DNA of 64,000 nt, from the IMG/VR virus record IMGVR_UViG_3300029705_000018, one strand, 5' to 3'. This document shows, piece after piece, positions 1,882-62,857 of this stretch. The position numbers were made by a program, and so were the translations under genes. Position 1 is the first letter of the stretch. Each line of letters opens with the position of its first letter. This stretch comes from a virus (taxonomy: Duplodnaviria > Heunggongvirae > Uroviricota > Caudoviricetes). Below the pieces are notes generated by a model. The model searched no databases, was not told the DNA's origin, and saw only the letters and a list, made by a program, of their open reading frames with translations.

Positions 1882-4800
1882 ATGGCTAAACAGTTAAATG
1901 TAGATTTGCGATTTACGGCAAGTAATACACAAGCTAAACAGCAAATCCAAGATTTACAAAGTGCTTTAAATAATTTAATGACTACTGCAAGTAAAAATAC
2001 CACAGGCCTTGGTATTACTAAAGATATAGCTTAGGCAACTAATGAAGTCGCTAAATTATAGGCAATGTTAGAGTCTTCTAAAAATGCATCTGGTGGTTTA
2101 GATTTAGGTAAATTTAATCAGAGCTTAAGTTAGGGACAAACAAAAATTTCTGATTATGCCAGAACTCTAAGTTCTTTAGGTCCATAGGGAGATCAAGCTT
2201 TTGCTAAATTAGCAAAAGCAATTATTAACGCTGAAGTTCCTTTAAAAAGAACAAATAGTGTATTAAAAGAATTTAAAACTTCTCTTATGAATACTGCTAG
2301 ATGGCAATTGTCTTCTAGTATGTTACATGGTTTTATGGGAGCGGTACAATCTGCCTATGGTTACGCGCAAGATTTAAATGAATCTTTAAATAATATTCGT
2401 ATTGTTACTGGAGCAAATATTGATGAAATGTCACGATTTGCAAAAGAAGCTAATGCGGCAGCTTAGGCTTTAAGCACAACTACTACAGAATATACTAACG
2501 CTTCTTTGATTTTTTATCAATAGGGTTTAAGTGATGAAGAAGTTGCCAAGAGAACAGAAGTAACTGTAAAAATGGCAAATGCCGCAGGTGAAAGTGCTTA
2601 GAAAATTTCTGATCAATTAACTGCTGTTTGGAATAACTTCTATGACGGTTCCAAATCTTTGGAATATTATGCTGATGTTATGACTGCTCTTGGTGCAGCA
2701 ACTGCATCTAGTACTGATGAAATTGCAGGCGGTTTAGAAAAGTTTGCGGCAATTGGTTAGACTATTGGTTTAAGTTATGAATATGCTGCTTCTGCATTAG
2801 CAACTATTACTTCTAACACTCGTCAAAGTGAAGAAGTTGTTGGTACTGCATTAAAAACTATTTTTGCACGTATTCAAGGTTTAAATTTAGGTGAAACTCT
2901 TGAAGATGGAACTTCTTTAAATAAATATTCAGAAGCTTTATCAAAAATTGGAATTAGCATTTTTGAGTAGAATGGCGAAATCAAAAAGATGGATAACATT
3001 CTAAATGAAATGGCTGAAAAATGGGGAACTTTAGCGAAGGATCAACAAATTGCTTTAGCATAGACTGTTGCTGGCGTTCGTCAATATACTTAGCTAATTG
3101 CTTTAATGGATAACTGGAATGCTGGAGATTCTGATAGTATGACAGCTAACTTAAATACTGCTTATAATGCCACTGGCACTTTACAAGAACAAGCAGATAT
3201 TTATGCAGAATCTTGGGAAGCTGCAAAAGATAGAGTTACTGCAGCGGCAGAAGAAATTTATAACCAATTATTGAACGATGAATTTTTTATTGATTTAAAT
3301 AATGGTTTTGCAGGTTTCTTAAATATTATCTCTGATACTATCGACACTCTTGGTGGATTACCTGGAGTACTTACTGTTGCATCTAGCCTCATGATTAAAA
3401 TGTTTGGTAAAGATATGGCAAAAGCGATTGATGATTGGGGATATAATATTAAATTGCGCTCTAAAGAGGGCGTTTAGTCTTTAATGGAGCTTAGAGAGCA
3501 AGCAAAAAATTCTTTAAAAACAATGTATGCAGATAATGTAGACACTGGTCCTATAAATTCTGCATCTCAAATTGCTTTCAGTGAATATGCTTCTTTAACA
3601 GATGTAGTATTAGCAAAACAAAAAGAATTAACTGCTCAAGGTTAGATGCTTTCAGAAGAAAATCAAAAGCAAGTTCAATATTTATTACAAGCAAATGAAG
3701 CATATGGAGAGCAAGCAATTCTTGCTGCAAAATCTTTAGAGGCAGCTGAACAGTAGACTCGAGAAAATGAGATGCAATTAAGATATGCTGTTTAGAAGCA
3801 AAATACAAAAAATCCTGAAGACAAAAAAGTTGATTTTAAAACAACTTTAAAACCTCAGATTGATGAAGCTCAAAAAGCTTAGATGTAGTATTCTTCTTTG
3901 TATGATGTTTTTTTGAAATTAAAACAATTACAAAATAAAGGTTTAGATAGTGCAACAATAATTAAAGAACTGACTGAAATGAGTAATTAGGCTAAAGCGG
4001 CAGGCCTTGATATTTCACATTTTGATGCCATTTTACACTCTTTAAATAACGGAGATAGCGTAGTAGTTACTTTAAATGCAATTGAAAGCAATTTAGATGA
4101 TCTTGCATTGGAAGCTTTAAATACTGCAGAAACTGTTAAAAATTCTTTAACTGGAATGGGAATGGATGGCACTCAAGTTGATGCAATTCTTGATTAGTTA
4201 ATTGAATCTTGGAGACAGCAAGGTATTGTTACTGCGGATTTAGCAGAAAAATTAAAAAATATAAAAGTTAATGGAGATGCTGCGGCAGAAGCTATTAGTG
4301 GAATGCAAGGTCCTCCACCAACTGTCGGCCAGAAATTTATGGCAGTTGCAAATACAATTAGTAATATTGCTATGAGTATTAATGTAGTAAAAGGATTAAT
4401 TGATACTTGGAATAATGAAGATATGAGTTTTGGAGAGAAATTACTTTCCACTTTTACATCTCTTGGAATGGTTATTCCAATGGTTACAACTGCTTTTACT
4501 GGAAACAATCTTGCAATGTTAGGTAGTGTTTCTTCTTCTATTGTTGCAGCAGCAGGTTTTGATGGTGTTGCTATTTCTGCAAAAGTTGCTGCAGGTGGTG
4601 TTGGAGCATTGTGGGCAGCTTTATGGCCTATTGCATTAGTAGTTGCAGGCTTGACGTTAGTAATTACTGCATTAGCAGCTGGAGTAAAATATTTATCTGA
4701 TGAATATAATAAAGATGCTATTGCTGCTAACAAAGCTGCTGAAGCAGCAAATAATTTGAAAGAAGCATATGAAGAAACTAAGAAATCTTATGAAGATATG

Positions 4801-7800
4801 ATTTCTGCTATGGAAAATTATCAAAGTGCTAGAGACAGTCTTGATAATTTAACTAAGGGTACTGAAGCATATCGAGATGCCTTAAACGGAGCGAATGAAG
4901 CAGCTTTACAATTAATTAAAGCTGGTAATTTGATTCGTGGAGAAGATTACGATATTGTCGGTGGAGAAATCATTATTAAACAAGAATCAATTGATGCGGC
5001 TAAAGAAAATCAATATGGAAAAGTTCAAGAAGCATATGCTGCAAGTACAATGGCAAATGCAAATGCTAGTCGTTTAAAAGCTGAGGCAGATCAAACTAAA
5101 CTTACTCGAACTGATGATAAATCTATTTGGTAGGGCGTAGTTGAAGGTATGGTCACAGGAATGGCTGCAATGATGATTACTGGTAATGCTCCAGCAGTTT
5201 TAGCAGGTGCATTAACGGGTGGAGTTGTTGGAGCTATTGATACTGCTCTTATAAATAAAGCTAGTAATGAAGCACAACAAAAACAAATTGATGATTTAGT
5301 AGCTCTTTATGATGAAATGGGAGAAGCTGCTTTTGATTCTGTAGAACTTCAAAAATTAGGCATTGATACTGCTAATGAAGAATATATTAATTCTTTAAAA
5401 GAAATTGTTCGTGCTACCCATCAGGCTGCAGAAGAAATGGAAGTCGCCGCTGAGTTAGCCGCAACCTCTATTTTGAGTCAAGATGAGCGTTTTGCAAAGT
5501 CTCAAGATAGTGAAGAATTATATGCAGCAAGTGGAGAAATATATAATAAATTATATCAAGATAATTTAAAAAAATATCAAGAAGTTGATATTGCCAATTG
5601 GGTAGGAGCTGGAACTGAAGATGCTAAAGATTTATGGAATAAATATTTAGAGGCTTCTGGCTTAGACGAACTAAGAGGAATTAAAGCCACCAATTTTAGA
5701 AAAGATAATACTGTTGACTATGAGTATTATGATGAAGAGGGTAAGAAGCAAGAAGCTAATGTTGATTTGGCTACAATGGCTGCGGCAGTTGCAGCTGCAG
5801 AAGCAAATAATTTATTAGCTGATTCAGCAAATGTATTACTAGGAATATTTAATGAATTAAATAATTCTGGTAATGAAGCTGCTTAGGCATTAAAAAATAT
5901 TATCGCTTATGAAAATGTTGAAAAATCAACTAGAGCTGAGTTTGATGATTTAAAAAATGAATATGAATCAGCAGAAGATAAAACTGCTTATTTAAATGAA
6001 GCTTTTGGTGGTGCTGATGGTGTTATTGATGAAGCTGAATTAAAGGCTTTGGGGTATGATTCCATAGAAGCTTTATAGGCAGGAATTGAATAGGCCATTG
6101 AAGATGGTGAAGATGCTTGGGATGATGTTGGTAAACATTTAACTAGCACTGCAAAAAAAGCATTTAAAAATTCTATGGATTCTGGTATTTTTGATGATTT
6201 GACTTTAGAACAAACTAATCAAATGGCAGATCTCTTCCAAGATGCTTTCGCCAAGGGTGGAGTTGAAGGTTTAGATTCTCTATAGAATAGTTTAAATGTA
6301 ATGTTTGAGAAGTCTGGTCAAGATGCTGGAAAAATGGCTGCAATCTTAGCAAATGTTGATTGGCAAACTACTAATATTGAAGATTTAACTGCAATTTTAG
6401 AAGACGCAGGCATTGAAACTGATGGTTTTGCTAATGAGCTAGAAAACTTAATAGACTTAATGCAAGAGGGTCAAAACATTGGTTTTGACGGTGCGGCCGA
6501 TATTTATAAAACTGCTCATGAGATTATTGATGATCTTAAAACTGGAGATACTATTTCTAGTGAAGATTATGATAATCTTAAAACTATGGGCATTAATATG
6601 TCTGACTATTTTGTTCAAATGGCAGATGGGTCTTATAAATTAACTGCTGATGCAAAAGAATTCTATGATGTTGTTAATGCTAAAACTTTAGAACAATTCC
6701 AAAATAATATTGACGCTTTACGCGGTCAAAAAGCAGATGTAAATAATTTACAAAATAGTACCTATGATAAGGATTCTATTGCTACAATGGATACTAATAT
6801 GATAGGTATGATTAAACAAGATAATGATAAATTAGGAGATCAATTAACTTTCTTAAAAGCAATTGGTTCTGATTTAGAAAATCTTGATAGCTATATTCAA
6901 GAGATTGAAGCTGGTAGACAATTAACCCAACGTCAATTAAGAGAAATTCGCAACGAACTTGAAGAAAATGCTTGGCAATGGGATAATTTATCTCAAGTAA
7001 CTGAAGGGTTTGATGCAGAAATCCAACGTAATATGGATGCATATGCTATGTCTGCAACTACAGTTGGAGATTTAAATGATATGCTTCGCGAAGGATTAAT
7101 TAATGCTGAAGCATATAATAAAGCAATTGAATCCGTAATGGATGTGGAATTTGAGGCTGAAGGGTTAGATGTAGAAGCCGCTAATGATGTAGCAGATGCT
7201 TTCCGTGAAATGGCAGATGCTGGTGAAGCAGGCACAGAAGCTTTAAAAGACAATGAAGAAGCTGTTAAAGATGCTACTGTTCGTTATATGGAACTTAACG
7301 AAGCTATTACTGATATTTATGATAATTATGATGATTATATAGATGTTTTAAAAGCAGCAAGAAAAGCTTCAACTCCTTTAGAAAAAGCTAACCTATTAAA
7401 TGAAAAATCTGCTAGATCTTTAAGAACTTCTTTGGCAGGTTTGCTTGGCACTACAGAAGATTTAATTGATGCAGATTTAATGGCAGCAATTAATCCAGCA
7501 GATTTCGAAGCAGCTGCAAACGGTAGTGTTGAAGCTATTGATAGAATTAGAGAGGCTTTTATAAAATTATAGATTGAAGGTATTGATGGAATTACACTTG
7601 ATGGCTTAATGGCTGAATTAAATGCATTTAATGATGGTGCTTATATTGATTTAGACAATATGCCAATGCTATGGTCTTTAATTGAAGCAAAGGTTGCCGC
7701 AGGTGCAACTGCAGCTGACATTGAAGCTTTGTTAAGTGGTTTGAACATCGATGCTGATGTTAGTGATTTCTATGGTACGATGGAAGAAATGGCAGCTATT

Positions 7801-10800
7801 GCAGAGCAAGCTGGTTCTCGTGTAGTACAAGCTACTTCTTTCTCTCAAACATCAACGACTGAAACTGAAGCTACTCCACGTACAGTTGATAATGTAAATT
7901 TCACTGAAACTGTTACAACTACTAATCATCCGTCTATTGCGGCAGTGCCTATGACAAATGGTTTTGGACCATTAATTTATGGTACTAATATGGTTAGTTA
8001 TTAGAAGTCTGTAAGTGTTGATCCAGTAAGTTATCAAACTCAAGATACTGCAACTGCTACTGAAGTTGTCACTGAGAACGCTGCGGGTGAAGAAGGTAAA
8101 GTTCGTGGTATTTAGATAAATGGTGCTCATAAAGCTCCAACTGCTTCTAGAACTCCAAGTCCAACTAATACAACCAGAAAACCTGTATCATCAGGCAGTG
8201 GCGGTGGTGGTAGTAGTGGTAGTAAAGCAAAAGAACCTTCTAAACCAAAATAGATGGATACCACTAAACAAACTGATGTAGTAAAAAGATATAAAGAAAT
8301 TGATGATGCGCTTGATGATTTATCTGATGAATATGATAGAGCTTCTAAATCTGCAGATAGATTATGGGGCGAACATCGTTTAGATGCTCTTCGTGAACAA
8401 AATGCTTTAATTGAAGAGTAGCAAGAATTGTTAGCTGAAAAATAGCGTCAAGCAGAACGCTATATGAAACAAGATCAAGTTGCTTTACAATAGGCTGCAG
8501 CTGCAGCGGGATTAGCCTTCTCATTTGATGATAAAGGTAATATTACTAATTACACTGACTAGATGACTGTCCTTTATAATCAGTTAGCTGCCGCAGAATC
8601 TCGTTACAATTCTCTTGCTACTGGTGAAGCTCAAGAGTCTTATGAAGAAACTATTCTTGACCCTCTAAAAAATAAGATCCAAAACATTGAAGATGCAATG
8701 GAGTTATACGAAGAGAGTAAAGAATTATTTGAAGAATTGGGTATTAACATTGAAGATCTTCAAGATTAGATTATGCAAAATAATTATGATATTATAATGG
8801 ACGGTTTAGAGCTTCATATTGGTTTTAATGAAGAAGATTTAGAAATAATTAATTATTATTTATCTAAGATTGAAGATGATTTTTATTCTATGGCTGAAGC
8901 TGCTGCTTTAATAGCAAATCCAAAAGGAAATAGTCAATTGACTGAGTATATTTCTAATTTAGAAGAATATGAATCTTCTCTTCAAGGATTAAATAAAGCT
9001 TATGTCGCAGGAGAAATTACTGAAGCAATGTATCAAGAAGGCTTAGAAGAAGTCCGTTCTGGTATTAGAGATAATTTAAGTTCTTTAGTTGAATTAGATA
9101 ATACTATGAAAGAGTATTATAGTAAAACTCTAAATATGGCCTAGGAAGAATTAGCGAAGTATACTGACCGTATGGAGCATCAAACTGAAGTTCTAGAACA
9201 TTATCAATCTTTAATGGAAATTCTTGGCAAAGAAACTGACTATAACGGTTTAGGAATTATTCTTGAAGGTCAAGCAAAAACTATTGAAAATCAAATGAAG
9301 GTTGCTAAAGAAGCATATGCTATGTATCAATCTGAAGCAGATGAAAAGAAGAAATTGCTTGATTAGGCTATTGCCACAGGAAATACTGAAGCTGCAGAAG
9401 TATATCAGAAAGAATGGGAAGCTGCTAATGCTGCTGCCATGGAAGCTCAACAAGATATGCTTGATAAAACTGAAGAGTGGGCTGATGCATTACGAGCAAT
9501 ACTGGAGAATAAACTATCTGGTTTCGCTCAAAATTTAGAGAACGCTCTGACCGGAGGCACATCTTTTGATACTTTAACTACTTCTATGGAGCGAGCAGCT
9601 AGTCTACAAGAAGAATATTTAACAACGACTAACCAAATTTATGAGACTAATAAGTTGATGCGCGTTGCACAGCAAGCTATTGATAATTCCACTAGTAGTA
9701 TTGCAAAGCAAAAACTAAAAGGATTTATTAATGAAACTAAGCAATTGCAAGATCAAACAAAGTTAAGTAAATACGAGTTAGAAATTCAGCAAGCAAAATA
9801 TAATTTATTATTGGCTGAGATGGCTCTAGAAGATGCTCGTGATGCGAAAACTGTTGTTAGATTAAAGCGTGATAATGAAGGCAATCTTGGTTATGTATAT
9901 ACCGCAGATCAAGATAAGTTGGCCGAAGCGCAACAAGAGTTAGAAGACGCACAAAATAGTTTATATAATATTGGATTGGAAGGCGCTAATGAATATAGTG
10001 AAAAGTATCAGCAAACCATGAGTGAAATGTATGATACATTTACTGAACTCCAAGAGCAGTATTTGAGTGGTGAATTCGAAACTGAAGCTGAATATCAAGA
10101 TGCTATGTTAAAAGCTAAGGAATATTATTATGAAAAATTGAAGAGTTATTCTTCTCTGCATCAAATAGCATTGACTACAGATAGTCGAGTCATTGCAGAT
10201 GCTTGGTCTTCTGATTATAGCGAAATGATTTTCAATACTGAAGATTGGATGCGCGCAGTTACTGAATATGTTGGTAATGTAAATCTTGCATTTGACGAAT
10301 GGGAAGAAAATGTTGATACTATTACTAATGAGACTCTTGGACCAAATCTTGATACTCTTGAAGATAACGTTAAAGATATTACAGATGCTAATGATGCTTT
10401 AACTGATTCTATCGTAAAAGATGGCGGCGTTATTGACGCTATTGAGTCTGAATTGGATCAAGTTAGTGAATTGACTGGTAAATACGCTAATTTAAGACAA
10501 TAGATTCAGGGACTGATTGCGGATCATGAAACTCTTATGGTACGTATTGGCAATGAACCTAATCCTTACACTCCTCCTGGAACTGGTACTTCTGGAAGTT
10601 CTTCTTCTAGCGGAGGTAGTAGTGGAAGTTCTAATTCTGGTAATTCTTCTAGTGGTAGTGGTCGAGGTTCTAGTACAGCAAGCACATCTTCTGGAACTAG
10701 TACTAAAGAAGCAAGTGCTCCAGAATATAGTGACACTACTAAGCAAGGAGTTGCTCTCGCAATTTGGAATGGTGGTTTTGGTTGGGGTAACGGTACTACC

Positions 10801-11271
10801 CGCCGCAACCGGTTGGATGAAAAAGGATTTGATCCCGAAGAAATCCAGCGTATTGTTGATATTACTAATCCTAATGGAGATTGGCGTACTCGTTATGGAA
10901 TTTCTGACTTAAGTAAGTATGCTTATTCTAGTTTTGATACTGGTGGTTATACTGGAGCTTGGGGTTCTTATGGTAAGTTCGCTATGTTACATGAAAAAGA
11001 ATTGATTTTGAATCCAGGTGAAACTGAAAACTTTTTAGCAAGTATGGAAGTATTGCGTAGTATTATCAAGATGATTGACTTACAAAGCACTGCTTCTCAG
11101 CTAGGTGGATTGTTACATAGTCCTGGATATTACGCTCCTCAAACTTCTGAGGTATTAGAGCAAAATGTTCATATTGAAGCTAGCTTCCCTGAAGTAACTG
11201 ATAGATATGAAATTGAAGCTGCTTTGACTTCTATCGTCAATCGTGCTTCTCAATACGCTAACCGTAAATAA
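1882..11271 (+). CDS. Tape-measure-like giant tail protein of about 3,129 aa with 36 in-frame TAG sense codons. Contains an internal hydrophobic transmembrane-like segment (GMVIPMVTTAFTGNNLAMLGSV...LVVAGLTLVITALAAG) and long coiled-coil-like regions. Ends with TAA.
   Basis: Ten ORF-track pieces (3106, 4303, 5149, 6301, 7609, 8563, 8773, 9172, 9439, 10537) are all in frame 1. Every gap was translated by hand and contains only TAG. RBS GAGAAAGGAG before ATG 1882. A terminator follows at 11278. Confidence 0.8.
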
Positions 11272-25707: not shown

Positions 25708-25770
25708 TTTCTTTCTATTGAGAAATTAATATATATAAGTAAATAATTTTTAGGAAGGAGAGAGATTATA

Positions 25771-27258: not shown

Positions 27259-27272
27259 GGAGGAATTGAAGA

Positions 27273-28694: not shown

Positions 28695-28714
28695 TATAAG
28701 GAGGATTACTAATA

Positions 28715-30844: not shown

Positions 30845-30907
30845 TTCGGACAGAAAAGGACAATAAATAAGTTGTTATTTTCAAATCCTTATGAAGGATG
30901 ATTATAT

Positions 30908-30946
30908 GGAGAGGATAATATAATTATCCTCTCCATTTTTTTTATA
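30908..30946 (+). terminator. Rho-independent terminator
   Basis: ggagaggataatataattatcctctcc followed by attttttttat. Confidence 0.75.
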
Positions 30947-30969
30947 TTTGGATAGAAAGGAGAGCAACA

Positions 30970-36900: not shown

Positions 36901-37440
36901 ACATATGCTTTCAAGAGTATCAAGAGTTTAACTACTGTTGATATGAAATCTAATGTTGAAGAAATTGGTAGCCAGGCATTCTATGAAACCAACATTAACT
37001 TAACTTCTTTACCTGCTAAACTAAAACTTCTAAAGTCTGGTGCATTCATGGATTGTCGTGAATTGACTTTGTCTGCTTTACCAGCTTCTTTAGAGACTAT
37101 CGAAAGCCACGTATTTTTCTTATGTCCTAAGATTAGTATTAATCAATTGGGTGGCGGTGACGCTAAATTGAGTTATATCGGTATGCAAGCTTTTGGCGGC
37201 GGTTCTGGCGCTAATGGCACTGTTACTGATATTTACTTCGGCTCAACGGTTAACTTCATTGGTGAAAACGCCTTCAAGGGATATGGTAAAAATGGTCGTG
37301 TAAGTACTATTAGCTTTGCTAAACAAAGTGTTGAAGATTATCTAATGACTGATACAGCCTACCATACTAGTATTTCTACTATGGGATTTGATAATCCTCC
37401 TTACACTGAAGTTTGGGATTGGAAAGGAGAAGGTTCTTAA
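30970..37440 (+). CDS. Giant 2,156-aa tail-associated or adhesin protein with a C-terminal BspA-type leucine-rich-repeat region (...IGSQAFYETNINLTSLP...). No TAG.
   Basis: Single uninterrupted ORF. RBS GAAAGGAGAG. Confidence 0.8.
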   Translation: MVDQKNVLQSIGARETGNVFRPVNCTEQDMKRKRAIPGYLYFTQDSHKIYQGLGSGEYQMVGGSSSIFYGKYPMTDDEKYGTNVFFTFSMTEHIEGENVPALDSLILNIPDGGFYRVLNVDGDAIAVERLAMSGGGGDNTGPGSNQKGNITIEYYNGADVDTNITILNGVEHWIEFTITATDEVGDILTETGTASWAINGKTYTQSVTTGYNKFRVDELLPMAKDGNYTRINLMVYMNTGGITDNYASKQWNIQKVDLRLEWPFTYSEDEYRKDSTFTLVFKPFGGINCTAHITFDNGSTLGQDYFEEDIPANRANGNEFTTQAMKSLSYGEHTCSIYLDATINEDTGKPITVRTQEIVHRITFTEGGTSTILTVPFDQKTATQYDTIEIPFLVYDPDTTECSVTFSVNDNVISTRSYNRDKQSIPYTITTHGTIKLALESTNGDTKREFNITVEPLDLNREEVSGAAFSLKAINFSGNDEVINWVGGSETKPVRLNFSDNFDWRNGGLKYEVLADGSIEKFICVRQGTWMEIDYKLFENFKTGTTGGKNFKFCFKAANCYDYEAPVLSCIHYNYNEIELTEDTYRTNKYYILSGSDYIISRNPFDETATYFEKVRVAEIGLEFDAQKATFSSATYPNFATQYCENSYIEVETEIWPNVGDRQQGSKTVYGDRYLMIWVDGVPAGAKPYSQNMALQQNDAQTIRIGSDSCDVYVYTAKAYERRLTNDEHLNNFVMDAPSVNKMLERHRRNDIIDSSTGEISYELLVQKNPGCHAYLYDIPELTTNKEDKIDGCTYYELINEYDNLGKPFMRADKVRTYVQGTSSAAYGVAAFNLRSDFTKKGKIYDKNGNEIPGWRPSDEDEYIDIACTKVNVASCENANNVVNAEWYNRFQPYWDAHRRKGTRYDSDGNLLYNPMRDCMKFHSGVVFLRDHNTQFKYLDDNGDPKSEIYLESNAFINPTNPDWEAKYAAEPYFKMYSIGNMGNDKKNLNVFHDTTNPRAACVEVLDNQNAEHWMTIFNEKAFEKEVVGQDEEGKDITKGPYYEFRYGLVENEDLLENEQGITVEQQEQDFLRLAEWFAMNDPSPYDELSHPNGYTGEELPEPVTFTDDFVFEGFDPPGYEGQPNPTEISLKGQKISRYKGTYTHDTKDYRIAKMLYECEDYLVMDSVVFHYLYISRHTMVDNVAKNTFWSTEDGFHWDLTKNYDNDTSDGNDNTGNLTYTYGLEVGDINPNGKDVFNASPSVWLNFIHELREAQQYLFQELSKKGAWDADDYLAEFKAHQDIIPEICWIQDYERKYIRPRRLGLDETTFLSRLEGGRKTHQRKQYETYQEFYLNSKYVASTAFTDSAGIEFRFNKDGDFALQPTDVLPMTFYIDCYGTIHLGGQKRTSTRIKRGNYYNAPVGELISAASDATCYIYGASMIQTIKDLYKLYPGYAKMTNASKLREFEIGSDIEGYYNPRLSEVSVGTNAMLQKFQARNVGNPENISILSLTNATQLETVLMSGSAFKELSLAPNATTKELELNPLAIFSATNLLDLETVRLDDGIYDSIQQAYINNCPGLDVYTYRFAKAPSLTNYQFTDVNWVINDETEDDFVLDADNNVVAFAALENLTDNNTGPRLGTTTVTALSGTLTVDKACAIDEYKIYKTYAKTYPNLIFKYTDKVGANFNPAVELIFLTNENSEEQYYRVLGSGDTSGENAHSIAYLTSAQGPLGFAIGTPHKESTSSHDFAFTGYWIHKKDNVITKYYNTKDLPDGAVPEASAISFEDITPTESMTFYPEYITTDREYKVRFCDWAGNIILQNGEEYWPVPYGKTYVEAAGPMTNFHYRDNTGLQDHMRWAFQGWSKNQYKDKEIKNPVYEDLATMVVTNDVTLHGHYLTEDCRDVASKLEYFNFSERGKISIAEEYRETLQGKITLPSEYDGIPLTQVKDFKNMARVTHVFFLRTNTSYTSIFQQAFEGALALQYVDLPIGITHIGTYAFKSIKSLTTVDMKSNVEEIGSQAFYETNINLTSLPAKLKLLKSGAFMDCRELTLSALPASLETIESHVFFLCPKISINQLGGGDAKLSYIGMQAFGGGSGANGTVTDIYFGSTVNFIGENAFKGYGKNGRVSTISFAKQSVEDYLMTDTAYHTSISTMGFDNPPYTEVWDWKGEGS

Positions 37441-37652
37441 TGACTAAAGATAGAAAATACAGATACCTTGGCCGCAATGGTATTTTAGATACTAAGGTCC
37501 TTCTAGATGGTATCAATCATATCAATATCGTAACTATCAATGCTGATCCCGGCAAGATTTTAACTAATGGTGAGCGTACTCAGTACAGCGTCACTGTTGA
37601 AGAGGCCGAGGAACATAAGTGGAGAGAAATTACGGACAATACCAAAAAATAA
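37440..37652 (+). CDS. Small hypothetical protein of about 70 aa
   Basis: ATG overlaps the upstream TAA (TAATG). ORF-track entry 37413..37652. Confidence 0.45.
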   Translation: MTKDRKYRYLGRNGILDTKVLLDGINHINIVTINADPGKILTNGERTQYSVTVEEAEEHKWREITDNTKK

Positions 37653-37728
37653 GGTTATTTGATTTTTCAGTTCTAGGGAAGGGAAATTCCTTCCCTAGAA
37701 CAATATTATAAAGAAAGGAAGATATAAC

Positions 37729-39741
37729 GTGATTACAGTCTATAATAAAGATTATAAAGACCAATATACCGTTCTATTCCAAGACGCATATAACGTTTTA
37801 TTGGATATGCAGGCTAAAGATCCTCTTGGTGTAAAGATTAATCAGTCTGTTTTGGATAAAGGCAAAATCAGTTCTCTTGAAGAGTATTTTGCTCATATTG
37901 GTTATTTAGCAGATTATCACACTGAAAATATTAGAAATAATCCACCTTCTAATGTTGCATATCAAAACTCTGCTAAGTTCTTGATGCTTCCTATGGATGA
38001 AAAATACGATGTCAAGTCTGGCTGTTTTTACATTGACCTAAATACTAGAAATATTCAGGTTCCTGATATTTATAGTAAATATGGTGTTAGTGTTACTGGT
38101 GATCAGTTAGCCGAGACTTTGATGTTTAAGGTTCCTCGCTATTTCGATTATACTGACTTGGCTTCTACTGAAATTTATGTTCAGTGGACTAACCCAGCAG
38201 GAGACGAAGGTGCTTCTCGTATTGTCTTAGTTGACTTTGAAGCAGAAGAAGGTTATCTATTATTTGGTTGGCCTTTGACCAGTAAGGTTACTGTTGAAGG
38301 TAAAAATCCTTTGAAGTTCTCTGTTCGTTTCTTCGTAAGAAATGAAGAGAAAGAAATTCAGTACAGCTTAAATACTTTGGCTAGTTCTGTTATGATTAAG
38401 CAAGCTCTATATACTCATTTCAATGCTGACCTAGACATTGATGATCCATCTTTGTTGTTTGCGGCCGCAGTTGAAAATGGCGTTGACTCCAACATGACTC
38501 TACCTCAGATTCCTGTCTTCTTCTATGATTGGAAATTGGGTAATGACGAAGGAAAAGCTTTCTTAAAGAATGATGCAATTAAGCTATATGCTAGCGGTGC
38601 CACTGCTGATGCAGGTCAGTTGTGCTACAAGTGGTATTATACTCCTCGATTCATCGAAAATAATGTCGCTGTAACTAAAGATACTGAAGAAGTTTTCAAG
38701 GCTTACGCTGATGTAGATACTATCTTCAAGCCCACAAATGATACTGAAAAAGAAGCTGGCAAGACTTATTATGTTGAAGAAATCGAAGCTGAAACTGGCA
38801 ATCAGATTTATACTGTTTTCCTAGGCGATGCTTTTGAAGAGCCAGAAGAGGGAGAAGCTGCTCCTGTTTATTATGAGCAGGTAAGTGTTTATACCATTTT
38901 GGCTGTTGATGATGATGCTGAGGATTTGGGTGCTTCTACTGCGCTAGCACCTAATAAGAGATATTGGCCTCACGTCACCGGTGAATACAAGCTAACTTTG
39001 AACAATCAAGTTGGTAGTAGCAAATCTGCAGAGAGCGTTGATTCTTTGAAGTGCGTAATTCCTTGTGTTGAAAAAGTTGAGTTCACCGCAGATTTACCTA
39101 AGAACAAAGTTCTATCTACTATTGGCGAAGGCGAAGAGACTGTTAGCCAGGCTATTTTAACTGTTACTGTTGATGCAAATGACGGTGCTGAAAAGAGCTA
39201 TGTATGGTATGAAGCTGCTTCTTCTGACGCTGAATATGTTGAAGTTCCCAATGCTTCTAATGCTAGTATGACTGCTACTCAGCCAGGCTGGTATAAAGTT
39301 AAGGCTATCGGTACTTTGAACAGAGAGAGTATGTGGAAAGAAAGTTCTGAATGTAAGGTTACTTATCCTGCTGAAGCTCCTGAAATCGTCAAGTATCTAG
39401 TTGATGGTATCGAGTATCCTATTACAGATGATGACCCAACTTTAGAGAATGTTCCTGGCTTGAATACTCCTATTACCTTCAAGATTGAAATTGAAGAAAT
39501 GAATGAGTTCCAGACTGACGGTGTCACTTACAAGTGGTTCCGCAATACTCCTAACCAGAATGGTACTCCTATTAAGGATTCTGATCTAGATATTATTAGT
39601 GTAAATGGCAGTGAAATTACTGTTAAGCTATTAGCTAATAATGACTTGCCTGTTAATATTGCCTTCTATTACTGTGAAATCACTAATACTCTAGCAGGAG
39701 AAGAAAAGAAAACTACTTCTAAGGTATTCCAGATTTCTTAA
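37729..39741 (+). CDS. Structural or tail protein, 670 aa. GTG start. No TAG.
   Basis: Intact ORF. RBS AAAGGAAG. Confidence 0.7.
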   Translation: MITVYNKDYKDQYTVLFQDAYNVLLDMQAKDPLGVKINQSVLDKGKISSLEEYFAHIGYLADYHTENIRNNPPSNVAYQNSAKFLMLPMDEKYDVKSGCFYIDLNTRNIQVPDIYSKYGVSVTGDQLAETLMFKVPRYFDYTDLASTEIYVQWTNPAGDEGASRIVLVDFEAEEGYLLFGWPLTSKVTVEGKNPLKFSVRFFVRNEEKEIQYSLNTLASSVMIKQALYTHFNADLDIDDPSLLFAAAVENGVDSNMTLPQIPVFFYDWKLGNDEGKAFLKNDAIKLYASGATADAGQLCYKWYYTPRFIENNVAVTKDTEEVFKAYADVDTIFKPTNDTEKEAGKTYYVEEIEAETGNQIYTVFLGDAFEEPEEGEAAPVYYEQVSVYTILAVDDDAEDLGASTALAPNKRYWPHVTGEYKLTLNNQVGSSKSAESVDSLKCVIPCVEKVEFTADLPKNKVLSTIGEGEETVSQAILTVTVDANDGAEKSYVWYEAASSDAEYVEVPNASNASMTATQPGWYKVKAIGTLNRESMWKESSECKVTYPAEAPEIVKYLVDGIEYPITDDDPTLENVPGLNTPITFKIEIEEMNEFQTDGVTYKWFRNTPNQNGTPIKDSDLDIISVNGSEITVKLLANNDLPVNIAFYYCEITNTLAGEEKKTTSKVFQIS

Positions 39742-39759
39742 TAAAGGAGGTCAATAATT

Positions 39760-40407
39760 ATGTCACAGTTAAGTCAAACTGCTATTGACAAATTATATGA
39801 AATCCAAAGAAGTAATCCTCCAAAGATGGCTTCCATTCCATATGCGGAGGATTACATTGAAGTTGATTGGCGTACTCGCTCAATTGGAGAACGTGATATC
39901 CTAAGCACTGCTCGTGACCATAAATCCGAAAATTTATACTTTATCATGGATAGATATTGGGATTATATGGACTTGTCTACCACCACCTGTGTTATTTCTT
40001 ATAAGACTTATCCCGCAGACCCCCAGAAGCAAGGTGTGACTGGTTTATATGCCGTTCCATATTACGACATTTATACTCATAAAGCTACTCCTGGCACTTT
40101 GGAAAAGGATAAGATGGTTATTCCATGGTGTATTGATGGACGAGTAACTCAAGACGAAGCAGAAGTAGAATATGCCATTCGTTTTTATCGTGTTGATGCT
40201 GATGGAAAGAAAATCCTCTATAATATCAGCACCATGCCAAATGTTGGCAAAGTCCTATATGGACTAAACGTTCAGCCAAACGGCCTTGAAGACGCCGGAG
40301 ATCTAGCTGGTGATTATGATATTGCTAGTAGTATGTATGAACATTTTACTGACGAAATCAGAAAATTAAATCAGCAAGATATTTTTTGGATTGAATTTGT
40401 TTCATAA
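39760..40407 (+). CDS. Hypothetical structural protein, 215 aa
   Basis: Intact ORF with RBS AAGGAGG. A terminator follows at 40415. Confidence 0.7.
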   Translation: MSQLSQTAIDKLYEIQRSNPPKMASIPYAEDYIEVDWRTRSIGERDILSTARDHKSENLYFIMDRYWDYMDLSTTTCVISYKTYPADPQKQGVTGLYAVPYYDIYTHKATPGTLEKDKMVIPWCIDGRVTQDEAEVEYAIRFYRVDADGKKILYNISTMPNVGKVLYGLNVQPNGLEDAGDLAGDYDIASSMYEHFTDEIRKLNQQDIFWIEFVS

Positions 40408-48904: not shown

Positions 48905-49390
48905 TTAGGACCAATCGAATACTTCGACCTTATTTTTGGTATAATGAGCGCCAATACAAATAGCATCACATTCATCCTGTGTTGGTTTTACATTATAGGT
49001 TTTTACAACCCAATCTTGTGCGGCTTTCTTCTAGGCTGGACGATCTTTTCCCTTGATACCAAGAGAAGATTTCCAGACGGTAGAAAGAACGGCGGTTCGA
49101 GGCATTTTCATTTCAACAAATAATTCATGTAAAACGCCAAATACCTCAGCCAATGCTTTAAAGGTGGCTACATTATTGACAACATTATTTTGAAGTTGAA
49201 TATCTTCAAAGACGACTTCGTCAATATCAAACTTCTCAATTAAACCAATAACTTCCTTGCGAATAAAGTGAAGTCTATCTCCAACATCGGTTTGAGTTGC
49301 GGAGAACTTGCCATAATTGTAAAGTTCACCATCATCAAATACTGCCCAACCAGTCACGCGACTGGCCTGGTCCAATGCAAGAGTTCTCAC
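48905..49390 (-). CDS. ruvC: RuvC-like Holliday junction resolvase of 161 aa. The C-terminal catalytic motif (DECDAICIGAHY) is reached only by reading the TAG at 49031-33 as sense.
   Basis: N-terminus MRTLALDQASRVTGWAVFD matches RuvC motif I. After the TAG the frame runs 42 more codons to the TAA at 48905-07. Those codons resemble RuvC ...QADAADALAIAITH. GTG start overlaps the dUTPase TGA. Confidence 0.8.
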
Positions 49391-58561: not shown

Positions 58562-58590
58562 ATTATATCAATTTTTTTTATGTAAGTCAA
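58562..58590 (-). promoter_or_regulatory. Consensus promoter TTGACT-N17-TATAAT (minus strand) upstream of the polymerase gene
   Basis: Reverse complement reads TTGACT tacataaaaaaaattga TATAAT. RBS AAGAGGA before the pol ATG at 58526. Confidence 0.7.
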
Positions 58591-59779
58591 TCTTTGGTGA
58601 CAATCACCAATTTCTCTGCCGCACGAGTGGCCGCAGTGTATAACCAACGAGCATGATCAACGGGCTGGAAGGGGAACTTTTCTTCCAGAACCAAGACGTT
58701 ATCCCATTCAGAACCCTGCGCTTTATGACAGGTAATGGCATATCCATAAGTAAATTCCTTTGGCACAACATCGCCAATACGATTTTTTAGCTTATTCAGC
58801 TTATACTTATCACGCCATTCAAGCTCGCTTTCGCCGCCCTTCATAATGCGAGGGTCCATATTGATATGACCATAATTCTCACCTAAGTCAGATTCAAATA
58901 CACCAGTAAGGATATTGATCTTACCCTTCTCATAAGCGTAAAACGGGACATTGATATGACTATACTTGGGATCATGTAATGTTCCAATAGTGCCATTTAC
59001 CAATGGGTCGCCGTTAGTCAAATTACCCCAGTCCCAGTAATTCCGCAGACAAATAACTTTATCTCCTTCTTCTGGCTCAGGTCCAAAACCTCGTTGCTGA
59101 CGCATGAAATCATTCATACTGTGCCGTTGTAGATTAGTCGCAACAAGAACCTGGTCTGCCCAATCAAGCATTCCGGTATTGAGCGCGCTGGCTGGATAAA
59201 TTTGAACTTGGTCATTCTTTATATATTCCAAAGGCTTCTGGTCTCGAATATCCATAGTCAAACGGATAATACCAGATTCAGTAGCCTGTCTCATAATTTC
59301 ATCAAGGAAGATATGAGGATGGTCAAGCAAATGATTATCCTCGTCTTTCTCAATGGGTGGCAACTGGAACGGGTCGCCAAGACAAATTACATATACATTA
59401 TGGGAGAATAATTTATCCATAATACTCTTGGGCGCCATGGACACCTCATCAACCACAACGACTGTATATTCCAAAGATTTCTTTGGGATTCTAGTAAATC
59501 CACCGCCTGGACGAGGCACGCTATCATAAAGCAGACGATGTAGAGTCATTGCGTTCTTATTGCCCTTCTTAGCTAGAACCTGGGCGGCCTTGCCTGTAAA
59601 AGTAGCAAAGCAAACTTTATTATGTTCTACATCTAATGCTTCAATGATAAATTTTACCAGAGTGCTCTTTCCTGTACCTGCCTTTAGGCGTAGCCAGCAA
59701 TCACAGTGTACTTTTCATGTGCTCTGTGTCTGGCTACGGCAATTTTCAAACCTTCTTCTTGCTTTCTTGTAAGAATCAC
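58587..59779 (-). CDS. Dda/RecD-like SF1 DNA helicase, interrupted. A 31-aa N-terminal ORF (59684..59779, GTG start) ends at a TAA. The Walker A motif onward (AGTGKST...DEVSM...GDPFQLPP...HKAQGSEWD) continues in the -1 frame, which has no start codon of its own.
   Basis: Hand translation around 59680-59720. The frames are consistent with one missing nucleotide near 59684-59690. Confidence 0.55.
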
Positions 59780-60336
59780 AGTTCTACTTCCTCTCTTTCT
59801 TCAATATTCAAATCTTCAATATTCCATAGATTATCATGTAGTTCTTTATGACAATTAGAACAAATTAAAATACATTTTTTACTTTCTTCTACTGCTTCTA
59901 ATAAGTGAAAATGGTCATTGCTAATTGTAAAATCTTTTTTAGAGGGGTCAATGTGATGAAATTCTAATGCTTTTATACATCTATCATATCCACATCTTAT
60001 ACATTTTCCACCACGAGATTCTTTTATTTTAGCTAAAAACATTCCTCTCGTTAATTGAACTCCATTTGGCATACAGTTATAACAACAGGTTCTTTGATGA
60101 GCCGTAGAAGTTAAAGGATAAAATTCTTTTCCACAAATGGGACAAATTTTTGGTTTTCCTTTATAAGAAGTATCTTTTTGATTCTTTTCTTTATTGGCGT
60201 ATTTTTCTCTGCGCGAAGCGTTTTGACATTCTATACTACAGTATTTTTTAGTAGAACGGATTGCCTCAAATTCATTTCCACACATAACACATTTATTTAT
60301 CATATATTTTCTCCTTTTTTGAAATATTTCTTTCAT
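59776..60336 (-). CDS. HNH endonuclease with N-terminal Zn-ribbon repeats, 186 aa
   Basis: C-terminal CIRCGYDR...LEFHHIDP...N...CSNCHKELH HNH motif. Several CxxC pairs. Confidence 0.75.
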   Translation of the reverse strand: MKEIFQKRRKYMINKCVMCGNEFEAIRSTKKYCSIECQNASRREKYANKEKNQKDTSYKGKPKICPICGKEFYPLTSTAHQRTCCYNCMPNGVQLTRGMFLAKIKESRGGKCIRCGYDRCIKALEFHHIDPSKKDFTISNDHFHLLEAVEESKKCILICSNCHKELHDNLWNIEDLNIEEREEVEL

Positions 60337-60709: not shown

Positions 60710-61028
60710 TAAGGAACATATTGTTGTCCAATTTAAGAAAATCTTCATCCCACTCAATTTGGGGAAAAATTTCTAAATCGCTTTTTTGTTTTGGGTTTTC
60801 GGCTGGCGCGTCTGGCACCGGTCGGATGGCGTCTTGGAGAGCAATTATATTGGCAATAGCATTGCTTATCGCTCTTTCAAGTTCATCGACTCTACATTCA
60901 AGCACTCGAAAAGAATCACTCAATGTAGTTGCAGTACTAGCCATATCACAAGTTAGCATATCAACTCTATCTTGGATTAGATCAACCATGTACTTTGCGC
61001 CATCAGCAGTTAATACTTGTAATGCCAT
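60699..61028 (-). CDS. Hypothetical protein, 109 aa
   Basis: Intact ORF. TAA stop. Confidence 0.55.
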   Translation of the reverse strand: MALQVLTADGAKYMVDLIQDRVDMLTCDMASTATTLSDSFRVLECRVDELERAISNAIANIIALQDAIRPVPDAPAENPKQKSDLEIFPQIEWDEDFLKLDNNMFLIDL

Positions 61029-61037
61029 ATATCCTCC

Positions 61038-62831
61038 TTAGAAGTAATACTTCTGTTCACCAACAATTTCATAATCCTCAATAATAATTTGAGGAGAAAC
61101 ACTTCCGTTCCAGACATTGCGTTCACATTTGCCAACTACATTGATGGTGATACAACCCATCTCACTCTTCAACTTCTCATATTCTTCTTGAGAAGATTTG
61201 AATTTGATAAGACTTGTGCCATTTGGTAAAGTGATCTTCAAAGTAGGACTCTTATCGGGAGACATGAGCACAATATTACCGCTTGATACATTGATATGTT
61301 CAATAGCAACAAATGGTTCATCAACGCCTTGACCCCAAAGAGATTTCAAACCAGCAATCTCAATGATATCACTACCTCTGAAATCTGCTCCACTGAAAAT
61401 GAAATCAACTTTATAACAAGGAGTAAAATCAAACTCAGCCAAAGCCTTATTTGAATACTCCACAAATTCAGAAAATACTTTATCGTAAATGCCAACGCCG
61501 AGCGCATTAGCATGGCCTTCCGCATACATTACCAGGCCACTATTTTGTAGGAACTGGCGCAAATTATCAAACTTAGATTTATCATAACCACGACCAGAGC
61601 CTTCCCAGCTTTGCTCCTGTAAAGTCATAATCTTCTTACCATTGGTATCAAATATGTCTTGCTCAGTAATTGTCTTATTCAGTAGTAAAACTGGACGCTG
61701 GTATTTAGCCATAAGTTGGTTGGCGATAAGACCGGTTAGATTGCGATCCGCAGAAAAAGAATCCAGCTTGATTGCCAGAATTTTATTCTTCAATAAATCT
61801 TTTTGCTTGATAATAGCTTCAATAGTCTCAAGCGCAGCATCTCTTGCCTTAGTCTGACGATTTTTGATATTCGTACAATTTCGGCACGCCTGCTCTACGC
61901 GAGTTTCTTGCTGACCCTTACAGCCTCTCTTGGTTGAAGGAATTAGCTCATATCCACGATAATCTAACATCGATTCAAACATCAATAACTTTTCCTCTTG
62001 GCTACCCATTCGGATAGTAGCATTGACATATGGAGCAACATAGAACGCAATACCAATAGGAGTGATACCGTCCTTTAGCGAATACTGTTGCTTATCAACC
62101 ATGCCTTTGAAATAAGGATTTCTGATATTTTGTAAGCCACGATGAATTAAATGCTTGGTTTCAAAATCTCTCAAATCCATCATATCGGCAATCATGCCAA
62201 GAGCAACCAAATCAAGAAACTGATCGGCATAATCAACATTCATAAGTTCGTCAATATAAGAACAAAACTTATAAACCATGCCGACACCAGAAAGAGATTT
62301 AGTTGGATAATCACATAGCTGGTTATTGATAACGCAAGCATATTCGCTAACTTTTTCAGCTTCGTGGTGGTCAATAACCAGAACATCTACTCCACGCTCA
62401 TGGAGCTTTTTATGTTCTTCATAATCATTTGAACTTGAGTCTGGCGCAATTACCAACTTTACATCAGCTGGAATTGTATTGAGAATAATACCATGTTCTT
62501 TACCATTATGGATGCGGTAATAAACATTATTCTGAACATATCCAGGAAATAGGCAGTTCAAATAATTGATTAGTGTTGCCGCTGAAGTGTAACCATCACA
62601 GTCGCTATCAATTTGGATTAGGATCTTGTGTCCTTGCGAGATGTGATAAATCAACAGCTTTACACCCTACGCGATATTCGCAATAAGGGAGGGTGCTAAA
62701 ATGTCTTCATCAGTTGTATTTAGATAATGCTCAATTTTATCGGGTTCAATGCCACGATTTACGAGTACCTGTTCGACCGCAGATAAAACATCCTTGTGCG
62801 GGATGCGAGGTACTATTAGTTGATATTCCAA
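61038..62831 (-). CDS. recJ: RecJ-like DHH-family single-strand DNA exonuclease of about 597 aa. The N-terminal 54 aa are reached only by reading the TAG at 62667-69 as sense.
   Basis: Motifs DSDCDG, VIAPDSS and VIDHH. The extension LSAVEQVLVNRGIEPDKIEHYL...ILAPSLIANIA-Q-GVKLLIYH matches the RecJ N-terminus. TTG start after RBS AAAGGAGG. Confidence 0.75.
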
Positions 62832-62857
62832 AAGAAATCAACCTCCTTTCATAATCC

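What the first reader, a model, noticed from the sequence alone, without database searches (positions are those of the whole stretch)
61038..62831. RecJ-like DHH nuclease N-terminus hidden behind an in-frame TAG
The ORF track starts this gene at TTG 62654, immediately after TAG 62667-69. Upstream in the same frame are 54 more codons back to a TGA. There is a TTG start at 62829 preceded by RBS AAAGGAGG. The extension (…LSAVEQVLVNRGIEPDKIEHYL…ILAPSLIANIA) resembles the RecJ N-terminal region that precedes the DxDxDG motif. This is a second early gene carrying a single recoded TAG.
Basis: partly seen in the sequence, partly recalled or inferred. Interest (0 to 1): 0.6.

Follow-up and report, generated by a model that had tools for sequence, protein, structure and literature searches.

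The report
RecJ gene read through amber codon
This is an ordinary full-length RecJ-like DNA exonuclease gene of a large gut phage that reads the TAG stop codon as glutamine, so its "hidden" N-terminus is the first 59 residues of the protein, which standard-code gene callers cut off.

Summary
On the minus strand, a TTG at 62831-62829 follows a very strong ribosome-binding site. It opens 54 codons that run into TAG 62669-62667 and continue in frame into the 538-codon ORF ending at 61038.

The joined 597-aa protein matches RecJ models end to end. These are TIGR00644 (profile 5-546), PHROG 2484 and SPbeta YorK (residues 1-590 in one piece). The 69 N-terminal residues alone hit only RecJ models.

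All related phage contigs encode this N-terminus as one uninterrupted piece starting at the same codon. Their RecJ genes carry 0-14 TAGs of their own, often at invariant glutamine columns.

The window belongs to a roughly 183-kb SPbeta-like phage. Its late genes are full of sense TAGs: 78, including 36 in the tape-measure gene. The same TAG is present in five independent assemblies.

This is a correct gene-model repair inside a known phenomenon, TAG-to-Gln (code 15) phages with variably recoded replication genes. No suppressor tRNA was found in the window or in nearest relatives, only in more distant family members.

A nearby helicase gene has a recurrent, homing-endonuclease-linked coding gap that looks more interesting than the finding itself.

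The parts
62842..62849 (-). Shine-Dalgarno AAAGGAGG. The complementarity to the 16S 3' end extends further (GAAAGGAGGTTGAT).
   Evidence: Sequence read. Duplex energy is -19.4 kcal/mol, top 0.07% of TTG contexts on this strand.
62829..62831 (-). True start codon TTG of the RecJ-like gene.
   Evidence: It aligns with the ATG (MEYQL...) or TTG start of all orthologues. It lies 26 nt after the stop of the upstream gene at 62858.
62670..62831 (-). N-terminal 54 codons (residues 1-54) that standard-code ORF finding separates from the gene.
   Evidence: This stretch aligns to TIGR00644 positions 5-48 and PHROG 2484 positions 14-56. It also aligns to the YorK N-terminus. dN/dS against relatives is about 0.2.
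62667..62669 (-). In-frame TAG, codon 55, read as sense and most likely as Gln.
   Evidence: The column holds E/N/Q/D/A/K in orthologues. Across the family, TAG columns are 8.9-fold enriched for Gln. The TAG is seen directly in L018, and the same 54-aa plus 538-aa split is called in four further assemblies.
62652..62654 (-). TTG (codon 60) that a mechanical ORF finder takes as the start. It is an internal Leu codon.
   Evidence: It has only a weak SD of -6.5 kcal/mol. It lies inside the helix that precedes DHH motif I in RecJ alignments.
62193..62627 (-). DHH catalytic domain, residues 69-213. It contains motifs DSDCDG (75-80), D131, DHH (154-156) and GMIAD (212-216).
   Evidence: Pfam PF01368 hits at E 1.4e-16 over residues 69-213. 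The motifs were read from the translation and the alignment.
61074..61343 (-). RecJ OB-fold domain, residues 497-586.
   Evidence: Pfam PF17768 hits at E 2.4e-6 with 28.0 bits against a cut-off of 27.
61038..61040 (-). TAA stop of the 597-codon gene.
48905..49390 (-). RuvC-like resolvase gene, the only other gene of the minus-strand block with an in-frame TAG (49033-49031).
   Evidence: The Pfam RuvC profile (positions 2-142 of 148) aligns in one stretch through the TAG, at E 4e-4, which is below the gathering score. Sequence read.

Best explanation
The gene at 61038..62831 (minus strand) encodes one 597-residue YorK/RecJ-like single-strand DNA exonuclease with a DHH catalytic domain and a RecJ OB fold. 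Translation starts at TTG 62831, next to a very strong Shine-Dalgarno site. The ribosome decodes TAG 62669-62667 as an amino acid, most likely glutamine, because the phage uses code 15 (TAG to Gln).

The phage is a roughly 183-kb SPbeta-like siphovirus from an animal gut. TAG is a sense codon throughout its structural genes.

Shown here: the gene model, the homology of the N-terminus, the sense use of TAG in this genome, and the TAG-to-Gln correspondence in the family.

Inferred: full-length RecJ can only be made once amber suppression is active in the infected cell. The decoder is a tRNA-Gln-like tRNA(CUA), as seen in more distant family members.
For: - Continuous homology through the TAG. 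TIGR00644 recJ scores E 1.1e-86 over residues 19-587, profile 5-546 of 546. PHROG 2484 scores E 4.6e-153 over residues 17-594. SPbeta YorK shows 37% identity over residues 1-590 in a single tblastn piece. PDB 8y30 RecJ aligns to residues 19-589.
- The truncated form loses profile positions 1-48 and 27-34 bits. The N-terminal 69 aa alone hit only RecJ models.
- The 26 orthologous loci first examined, and later 55 distinct RecJ sequences, have the N-terminus fused and start at the same codon.
- The N-terminal codons show dN/dS of about 0.2.
- The SD at 62831 is far stronger than the one at 62654.
- The genome uses TAG as sense. There are 78 TAGs in 10 of 22 plus-strand ORFs, including 36 in the 3130-codon tape-measure ORF. 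Coding coverage rises from 85% to 97% when TAG is read through.
- Orthologous RecJ genes carry 0-14 TAGs at 41 alignment columns. Several of these are invariant-Gln columns, and Gln is enriched 8.9-fold at TAG columns.
- The TAG is seen directly in L018, and the same 54-aa plus 538-aa split is called in four further assemblies.
- tRNA(CUA) genes with U1 and G73, which are tRNA-Gln-like features, occur in family members such as L214, which lies on the same contig as L043.
Against: - No tRNA of any kind was found in the 64-kb window, by ARAGORN or by Rfam.
- None was found in the 10 kb to its left in the same genome.
- None was found in about 81 kb fetched from the nearest-clade contig. The decoder for this particular phage is therefore not identified.
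- The residue aligned to this TAG is variable (E/N/Q/D/A/K), so this site alone does not fix the amino acid.
- There is no expression or peptide evidence.
Confidence: 0.9

Rival explanations
1. The TAG works as a translational gate. This is compatible with the best explanation but adds a function. Early in infection, under the host's standard code, ribosomes stop after 54 codons. Full-length RecJ, and likewise the RuvC-like resolvase, would then appear only after the switch to code 15. That would delay the recombination nucleases to the replication and packaging phase.
For: - RecJ and RuvC-like are the only two real genes with TAG among about 4,500 codons of the minus-strand block. TAG makes up about 1% of Gln-type codons there, against 14% in the late block.
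- Both genes encode DNA-processing nucleases.
- The published model for recoded phages proposes exactly this kind of timing control and notes variable recoding of replication genes (preprint 10.1101/2021.08.26.457843).
Against: - The position and number of TAGs in RecJ are not conserved. They range from 0 to 14 per orthologue, and 24 of 55 sequences have none. This looks like neutral drift of CAG/CAA to TAG in a genome where TAG is already sense.
- An N-terminal bias of TAGs, seen in the first few relatives, disappeared in the larger set.
- There are no timing data.
Confidence: 0.3
2. The real gene is the 538-aa ORF starting at TTG 62654, perhaps by reinitiation 12 nt after termination at the TAG. 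The upstream 54 codons would be a separate small ORF or a decaying remnant.
For: - TTG 62654 lies 12 nt downstream of the TAG in the same frame. All four DHH motifs lie downstream of it.
- A T. thermophilus RecJ core lacking the extreme N-terminus has been crystallised. PDB 1ir6 aligns from query residue 51.
Against: - The SD at 62654 is weak, at -6.5 kcal/mol.
- A start there would cut into the conserved helix before motif I and lose profile positions 1-48.
- Every orthologue has the N-terminus fused.
- The N-terminal codons are under purifying selection.
- It would leave a 203-nt gap in a tightly packed operon.
Confidence: 0.05
3. The TAG is a nonsense mutation that makes the gene a pseudogene, or it is an assembly error.
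For: A single in-frame stop in a block that is otherwise nearly free of TAG.
Against: - The same split gene occurs in five independent assemblies.
- TAG is demonstrably sense in the same genome.
- Orthologues carry many TAGs at Gln columns yet keep intact 570-600-codon frames.
Confidence: 0.02
4. TAG is decoded as an amino acid other than glutamine, for example Glu, Lys, Tyr or pyrrolysine.
For: - At this particular column the relatives mostly have E or N.
- Glu is the second most enriched residue at TAG columns, at 2.2-fold.
- ARAGORN labels the CUA tRNAs 'Pyl' by default.
Against: - Gln is enriched 8.9-fold at TAG columns. Several TAG columns are otherwise invariant Gln, for example Q73 in IQIDSD and the Gln at reference position 581.
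- The CUA tRNAs have U1 and G73 like tRNA-Gln.
- Published metaproteomics shows TAG read as Gln in other phages (PMC9523058, abstract seen).
Confidence: 0.05

Closest known systems
YorK of Bacillus phage SPbeta (RecJ-like ssDNA exonuclease; PHROG 2484)
   Same: - It shows 37% identity over residues 1-590 in one alignment.
- It has the same DHH plus RecJ-OB architecture.
- The neighbourhood is the same: a DnaE-like polymerase, an SF1 helicase, a primase and a DnaB-like helicase.
- The structural genes of the same genome hit the SPbeta families YonD, YonB, YomW, YomV and YomU.
   Different: - SPbeta uses the standard code and its yorK has no in-frame stop.
- This phage is larger, about 183 kb. 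It comes from an animal-gut metagenome and has an unknown host. One binning hint points to Acutalibacteraceae.
Bacterial RecJ (TIGR00644; structures 8y30, 1ir6/2zxo, 5f54)
   Same: The whole length aligns, including the N-terminal helices, DHH motifs I-IV, the GH motif of the second domain and the OB fold.
   Different: - The score of 291 bits is below the equivalog cut-off of 396.9.
- No separate Pfam DHHA1 hit was obtained.
- It is a phage paralogue, not the cellular enzyme.
TAG-to-Gln (code 15) recoded phages: Lak, crAss-like, the Sapphire/Agate clades and the phAss-1 group
   Same: - There are dense sense TAGs in structural genes and sparse, variable TAGs in replication and DNA-processing genes. 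Orthologues differ in which genes are recoded (preprint 10.1101/2021.08.26.457843 and PMC10607447).
- The phAss-1 group is also SPbeta-related and has a tape-measure protein of about 3150 aa, against 3130 codons here.
   Different: - No suppressor tRNA was detected in the window or in most of the genome of the nearest relatives. The phAss-1 genomes have 2-3.
- The genome is larger: 183 kb against 136 kb.

Membership tests
RecJ / DHH phosphoesterase superfamily | DHH motifs I-IV (DxD, D, DHH, D) in an N-terminal catalytic domain | tested here: met
   Pfam DHH hits at E 1.4e-16 over residues 69-213. DSDCDG at 75-80, D131, DHH at 154-156 and GMIAD at 212-216 were read.
RecJ / DHH phosphoesterase superfamily | Second (DHHA1-type) domain with a GGH-like motif | tested here: inconclusive
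   There is no separate Pfam DHHA1 hit. TIGR00644 and the 8y30 alignment do cover the region, and AEGHANALG aligns with GGHHMAAG.
RecJ proper (TIGR00644 equivalog) | Score above the curated cut-off of 396.9 bits | tested here: not met
   The score is 291.2 bits. The protein is therefore called RecJ-like (YorK type), not the bacterial RecJ equivalog.
RecJ proper (TIGR00644 equivalog) | RecJ OB-fold after the catalytic core | tested here: met
   PF17768 scores 28.0 bits against a cut-off of 27, over residues 497-586.
RecJ proper (TIGR00644 equivalog) | N-terminal helical segment preceding motif I | tested here: met
   It is present only in the extended model. The alignment starts at profile position 5 with the extension and at 49 without it. 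The segment alone hits recJ at E 0.0031 and PHROG 2484 at E 1.8e-5.
RecJ proper (TIGR00644 equivalog) | 5'-to-3' ssDNA exonuclease activity | not testable with these tools
   This needs a biochemical assay.
Code 15 (TAG-to-Gln) phage | In-frame TAGs in conserved, essential genes that keep long open frames | tested here: met
   There are 78 TAGs in 10 of 22 late ORFs, including 36 in the tape-measure ORF. Coding coverage rises from 85% to 97% when TAG is read through.
Code 15 (TAG-to-Gln) phage | TAG positions align with Gln in homologues | tested here: met
   Gln makes up 31% of residues at TAG columns against a 3.5% background. Several invariant-Gln columns are replaced by TAG.
Code 15 (TAG-to-Gln) phage | Phage-encoded suppressor tRNA(CUA) | tested here: inconclusive
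   None was found in the window, in L159 or in about 81 kb of the nearest-clade contig. It is present in more distant family members. About 25 kb of the nearest-clade genome, and most of this phage's own genome outside the window, could not be fetched.
Code 15 (TAG-to-Gln) phage | TAG not used as a terminator | tested here: inconclusive
   With TAG read as sense, all long ORFs end in TAA (28) or TGA (8), but this follows partly from how the ORFs were built. In L014/L015 a TAG sits where L016/L017 have the stop, adding 9 codons.

The most novel reading that the evidence does not exclude
In this clade no suppressor tRNA is encoded at all, and TAG is decoded by some other route. Possibilities include a phage factor that disables RF1 so that host tRNA-Gln reads UAG, or an undetectable non-canonical tRNA. 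The single TAGs in recJ and the ruvC-like gene would then be selected gates. They would tie the production of recombination nucleases to that switch.
Probability: 0.12. Interest if true: 0.6.

Novelty: new member of a known kind. Interest (0 to 1): 0.22.

Why it matters
Mainly for annotation. Read with the standard code, this phage's RecJ-like exonuclease is split into a 54-aa orphan ORF and an N-terminally truncated enzyme. The public protein collection queried here holds only such truncated calls. They form an unnamed cluster of 262 members; the 15 listed are 413-545 aa long. The exact 597-aa product is absent.

The case also adds one well-documented example to a known pattern. In TAG-to-Gln phages the replication and recombination genes are recoded sporadically and differently in each lineage, with 0-14 TAGs in one orthologous gene. 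This bears on whether recoding of such genes is regulatory or simply drift.

It does not change any concept.

Tried and rejected
- N-terminal clustering of TAGs in RecJ orthologues as a sign of selection. This was suggested by the first 13 sequences: six TAG columns within the gene, all within the first 102 columns. It was rejected with 55 sequences, where 41 columns are spread over the whole protein.
- Search for the suppressor tRNA by walking along related contigs. Six of the eight IMG/VR scans went on this walk, plus the metagenome scan. The genome scan, made to look for the host, was also checked for tRNAs.
  - The scan leftwards with the first window ORF found no relatives.
  - The metagenome scan hit a widespread mobile-endonuclease-like family and was uninformative.
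  - tRNA clusters, including tRNA(CUA), appeared only in more distant family members.
- Rfam at gathering threshold on the window and on seven relatives' loci found nothing.
The sequence is absent from the protein collection.
- In-frame TAGs at 60775 and at 50461/50452 lie upstream of the real starts and are not within genes.
- My first idea that the HNH ORF sits inside an intron of the helicase gene was wrong. The helicase N-terminal coding part lies immediately after the HNH ORF.
- I ran no structure prediction and no homologous-protein search. The sequence evidence was already decisive.

Full report
**Observation.** On the minus strand, the ORF listing reports a 538-aa ORF at 61038..62654 with a TTG start. 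In the same frame it reports a 54-aa ORF at 62667..62831, also with a TTG start. The two are separated only by TAG 62669-62667. The next upstream in-frame stop is TGA 62840-62838. AAAGGAGG lies at 62849-62842, 10 nt before the upstream TTG.

**Is the extension part of the gene?**
- With the TAG read as Gln, the 597-aa protein matches TIGR00644 (recJ) at E 1.1e-86. This is one stretch over residues 19-587 and profile positions 5-546 of 546.
- It matches PHROG 2484 (RecJ-like ssDNA exonuclease) at E 4.6e-153 over residues 17-594.
- Pfam finds DHH at residues 69-213 and RecJ_OB at residues 497-586.
- tblastn aligns residues 1-590 to SPbeta YorK in one piece at 37% identity.
- phmmer aligns residues 19-589 to the solved RecJ 8y30.
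- The truncated 538-aa form starts only at profile position 49 (TIGR00644) or 57 (PHROG 2484), and loses 27 and 34 bits respectively.
- The first 69 residues alone hit only these two RecJ models, at their N-termini (E 0.0031 and 1.8e-5).
- The SD duplex for TTG 62831 is -19.4 kcal/mol, top 0.07% of TTGs on that strand. For TTG 62654 it is -6.5 kcal/mol, top 7.5%.
- The upstream gene ends at 62858. The long model therefore gives a 26-nt intergenic spacer, while the short one would leave a 203-nt gap.

**Relatives.**
- A scan of IMG/VR found 26 loci with this protein at 40-99% identity, on contigs of up to about 195 kb, plus one 402-kb contig that holds two related genomes.
- In every locus that covers the N-terminus, it is fused to the rest of the protein and begins at the same codon. 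The start is ATG in most and TTG in some.
- The N-terminal 54 codons show dN/dS of about 0.2 against relatives.
- The TAG is seen directly in L018. The same 54-aa plus 538-aa gene calls occur in four independent ENA/Logan assemblies. This excludes a sequencing error.

**Genetic code.**
- When TAG is treated as sense, long-ORF coverage of the window rises from 85% to 97%.
- The plus-strand block (1 to about 48,000) carries 78 in-frame TAGs in 10 of 22 ORFs. Thirty-six of them are in the 3130-codon tape-measure ORF 1882..11271.
- The minus-strand block has only two TAGs inside real genes: this one, and TAG 49033-49031 in a RuvC-like gene.
- From all fetched loci I extracted 55 distinct RecJ orthologues. 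They carry 0-14 TAGs each, at 41 alignment columns spread over the whole protein.
- Gln makes up 31% of the other residues in those columns, against a 3.5% background, which is 8.9-fold enrichment.
- Several of the columns are otherwise invariant Gln. One is Q73 of IQIDSDCDG, replaced by TAG in 21 sequences. A 77%-identical copy in an Acutalibacteraceae MAG contig also has TAG there.
- TAG therefore stands for Gln in this family. The window's TAG column itself is variable (E/N/Q/D/A/K).

**What the phage is.**
- A 183,267-bp ENA contig carries identical window proteins. Its structural genes hit the SPbeta families YonD, YonB, YomW, YomV and YomU.
- The replication block has a YorK-like RecJ, a DnaE-like polymerase, an SF1 helicase, a primase and a DnaB-like helicase.
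- This is an SPbeta-like siphovirus that uses code 15.
- Published work describes the same pattern. Structural and lysis genes are recoded, and replication genes are "variably" recoded. Suppressor tRNAs are detectable in only 40% of TAG-recoded genomes (preprint 10.1101/2021.08.26.457843).
- An SPbeta-related phAss-1 group has tape-measure proteins of about 3150 aa and TAGs in several DNA-processing genes, differing between orthologues (PMC10607447).

**Who decodes TAG here?**
- No tRNA was found in the window by ARAGORN or by Rfam.
- None was found in the 10 kb to the left in the same genome.
- None was found in about 81 kb fetched from the nearest-clade contig 3300024272_000018 or in its close relatives.
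- More distant members have tRNA clusters near an RNA-ligase gene. One is L214, on the same contig as L043, whose DnaB-like helicase is 79% identical. The clusters include tRNA(CUA) with U1 and G73, which are tRNA-Gln-like features.
- About 25 kb of the nearest-clade genome, and most of this phage's own genome outside the window, could not be reached. The decoder for this phage therefore remains unidentified.

**Mechanism and rivals.**
- Best supported, at 0.9: one 597-aa RecJ-like exonuclease, started at TTG 62831 and read through TAG as Gln.
- A regulatory gate role for the TAG is possible, at about 0.3. That would mean recJ and the ruvC-like gene are expressed only after the code switch. 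The non-conserved number and position of TAGs among orthologues fits drift equally well.
- An apparent N-terminal bias of TAGs in the first few relatives disappeared in the larger set.
- An internal start at 62654, a pseudogene, or a different amino acid at TAG are each unlikely, at 0.05 or less.

**Known or new.** The protein is a RecJ-like (YorK-type) enzyme, below the bacterial equivalog cut-off. The recoding is the known code 15 phenomenon. The finding is a correct gene-model repair, and a new member of a known kind. Its practical value lies in annotation. The public protein collection holds only truncated versions of this gene. They form an unnamed cluster of 262 members; the 15 listed are 413-545 aa long. 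The exact 597-aa product is absent.

**Side observation that may deserve its own follow-up.**
- The SF1 helicase gene downstream of recJ starts at GTG 59779 and continues in another frame to 58587. It is interrupted exactly between ...AGYA and GTGKST, the Walker A motif. The sequence reads GCC TAA AG GCA GGT, with an 8-nt spacer at 59686-59679.
- Five distinct lineages have spacers of 5, 7 or 8 nt at this same codon boundary.
- Each spacer follows an Ala codon and begins with TAA or TGA.
- The codon just before the resumed frame is GCA, GCA, GUA, ACU or ACC. Each is cognate to Ala or one mismatch away.
- A homologous HNH endonuclease ORF lies directly upstream in 6 of 9 distinct interrupted genes and in 0 of 41 intact ones.
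- Within interrupted clades the downstream helicase part shows dN/dS of 0.05-0.07, the same as intact genes.
- This resembles a miniature version of the T4 mobA/gene 60 cassette of homing endonuclease plus bypass. That system I know partly from memory and partly from the abstract of preprint 10.1101/2022.08.31.505936 listed.
- Whether the ribosome hops, frameshifts or fails here is untested.

Noticed in passing
window 58587-59779 (minus strand); junction at 59689-59676; HNH ORF 59776-60336; also L062-L065, L023/L026, L072, L109/L110, L039/L040: The SF1/RecD-like helicase gene is interrupted exactly between ...AGYA and GTGKST (Walker A). The interruption is a spacer whose length is not a multiple of three and which begins with an in-frame TAA or TGA.

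- In the window the sequence is GCC|TAAAGGCA|GGT. Four other lineages have 7-, 7-, 5- and 5-nt spacers at the same boundary.
- The codon before the resumed frame is an Ala codon or one mismatch from one. This fits a 5-8-nt hop by peptidyl-tRNA-Ala, and a +1/+2 frameshift is also possible.
- A homologous HNH endonuclease ORF lies directly upstream in 6 of 9 distinct interrupted genes and in 0 of 41 intact ones.
- The downstream helicase part stays under dN/dS of 0.05-0.07.

The arrangement resembles a miniature T4 mobA/gene 60 cassette.
   Followed up: partly
window 48905-49390 (minus strand), TAG 49031-49033: A RuvC-like resolvase gene has one in-frame TAG before its C-terminal catalytic region. 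It is the only other TAG-bearing gene of the minus-strand block. The Pfam RuvC profile aligns through the TAG at E 4e-4, which is below the gathering score.
   Followed up: partly
window 25747-40407 (plus strand): There is a TAG-free island of six consecutive ORFs inside the otherwise TAG-rich late strand, with slightly higher G+C (0.36-0.39). Its ORFs include one with a weak tail-tip domain hit and a 2173-aa protein with BspA-type leucine-rich repeats. It may be a host-recognition module acquired from a standard-code source.
   Followed up: partly
whole window; L159; loci of the nearest-clade contig IMGVR_UViG_3300024272_000018: No tRNA gene of any kind was found in the window, in its left flank or in about 81 kb of the nearest relative. 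More distant family members carry clusters of up to 12 tRNAs, including tRNA(CUA), next to an RNA-ligase gene. The nearest clade may lack tRNAs altogether.
   Followed up: partly
L201 5964-6500 and neighbours (relative of the window phage, contig 3300024272_000018): A free-standing ORF reads like a GatB/YqeY-type domain protein. I judged this by eye from the N-terminal sequence and ran no profile search. It sits among apparent NAD-salvage genes (NadE, nicotinamidase, Nampt, Sir2, macro domain) and an RNA-ligase-like gene. YqeY domains assist tRNA-Gln handling in some bacteria, so it could be relevant to TAG-to-Gln decoding.
   Followed up: no
L014/L015 versus L016/L017, C-terminus of RecJ: In two relatives a TAG occupies the position where near-identical relatives have the TAA stop. 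If read through, it extends the protein by 9 codons. This could show whether TAG still terminates at some frequency.
   Followed up: no
IMGVR_UViG_3300032167_000002 (402,311 bp; L003/L009, L083, L114/L117): This contig holds two diverged copies of the whole replication region about 192 kb apart. It is probably a chimeric concatenation of two related phage genomes, not one 402-kb phage.
   Followed up: no
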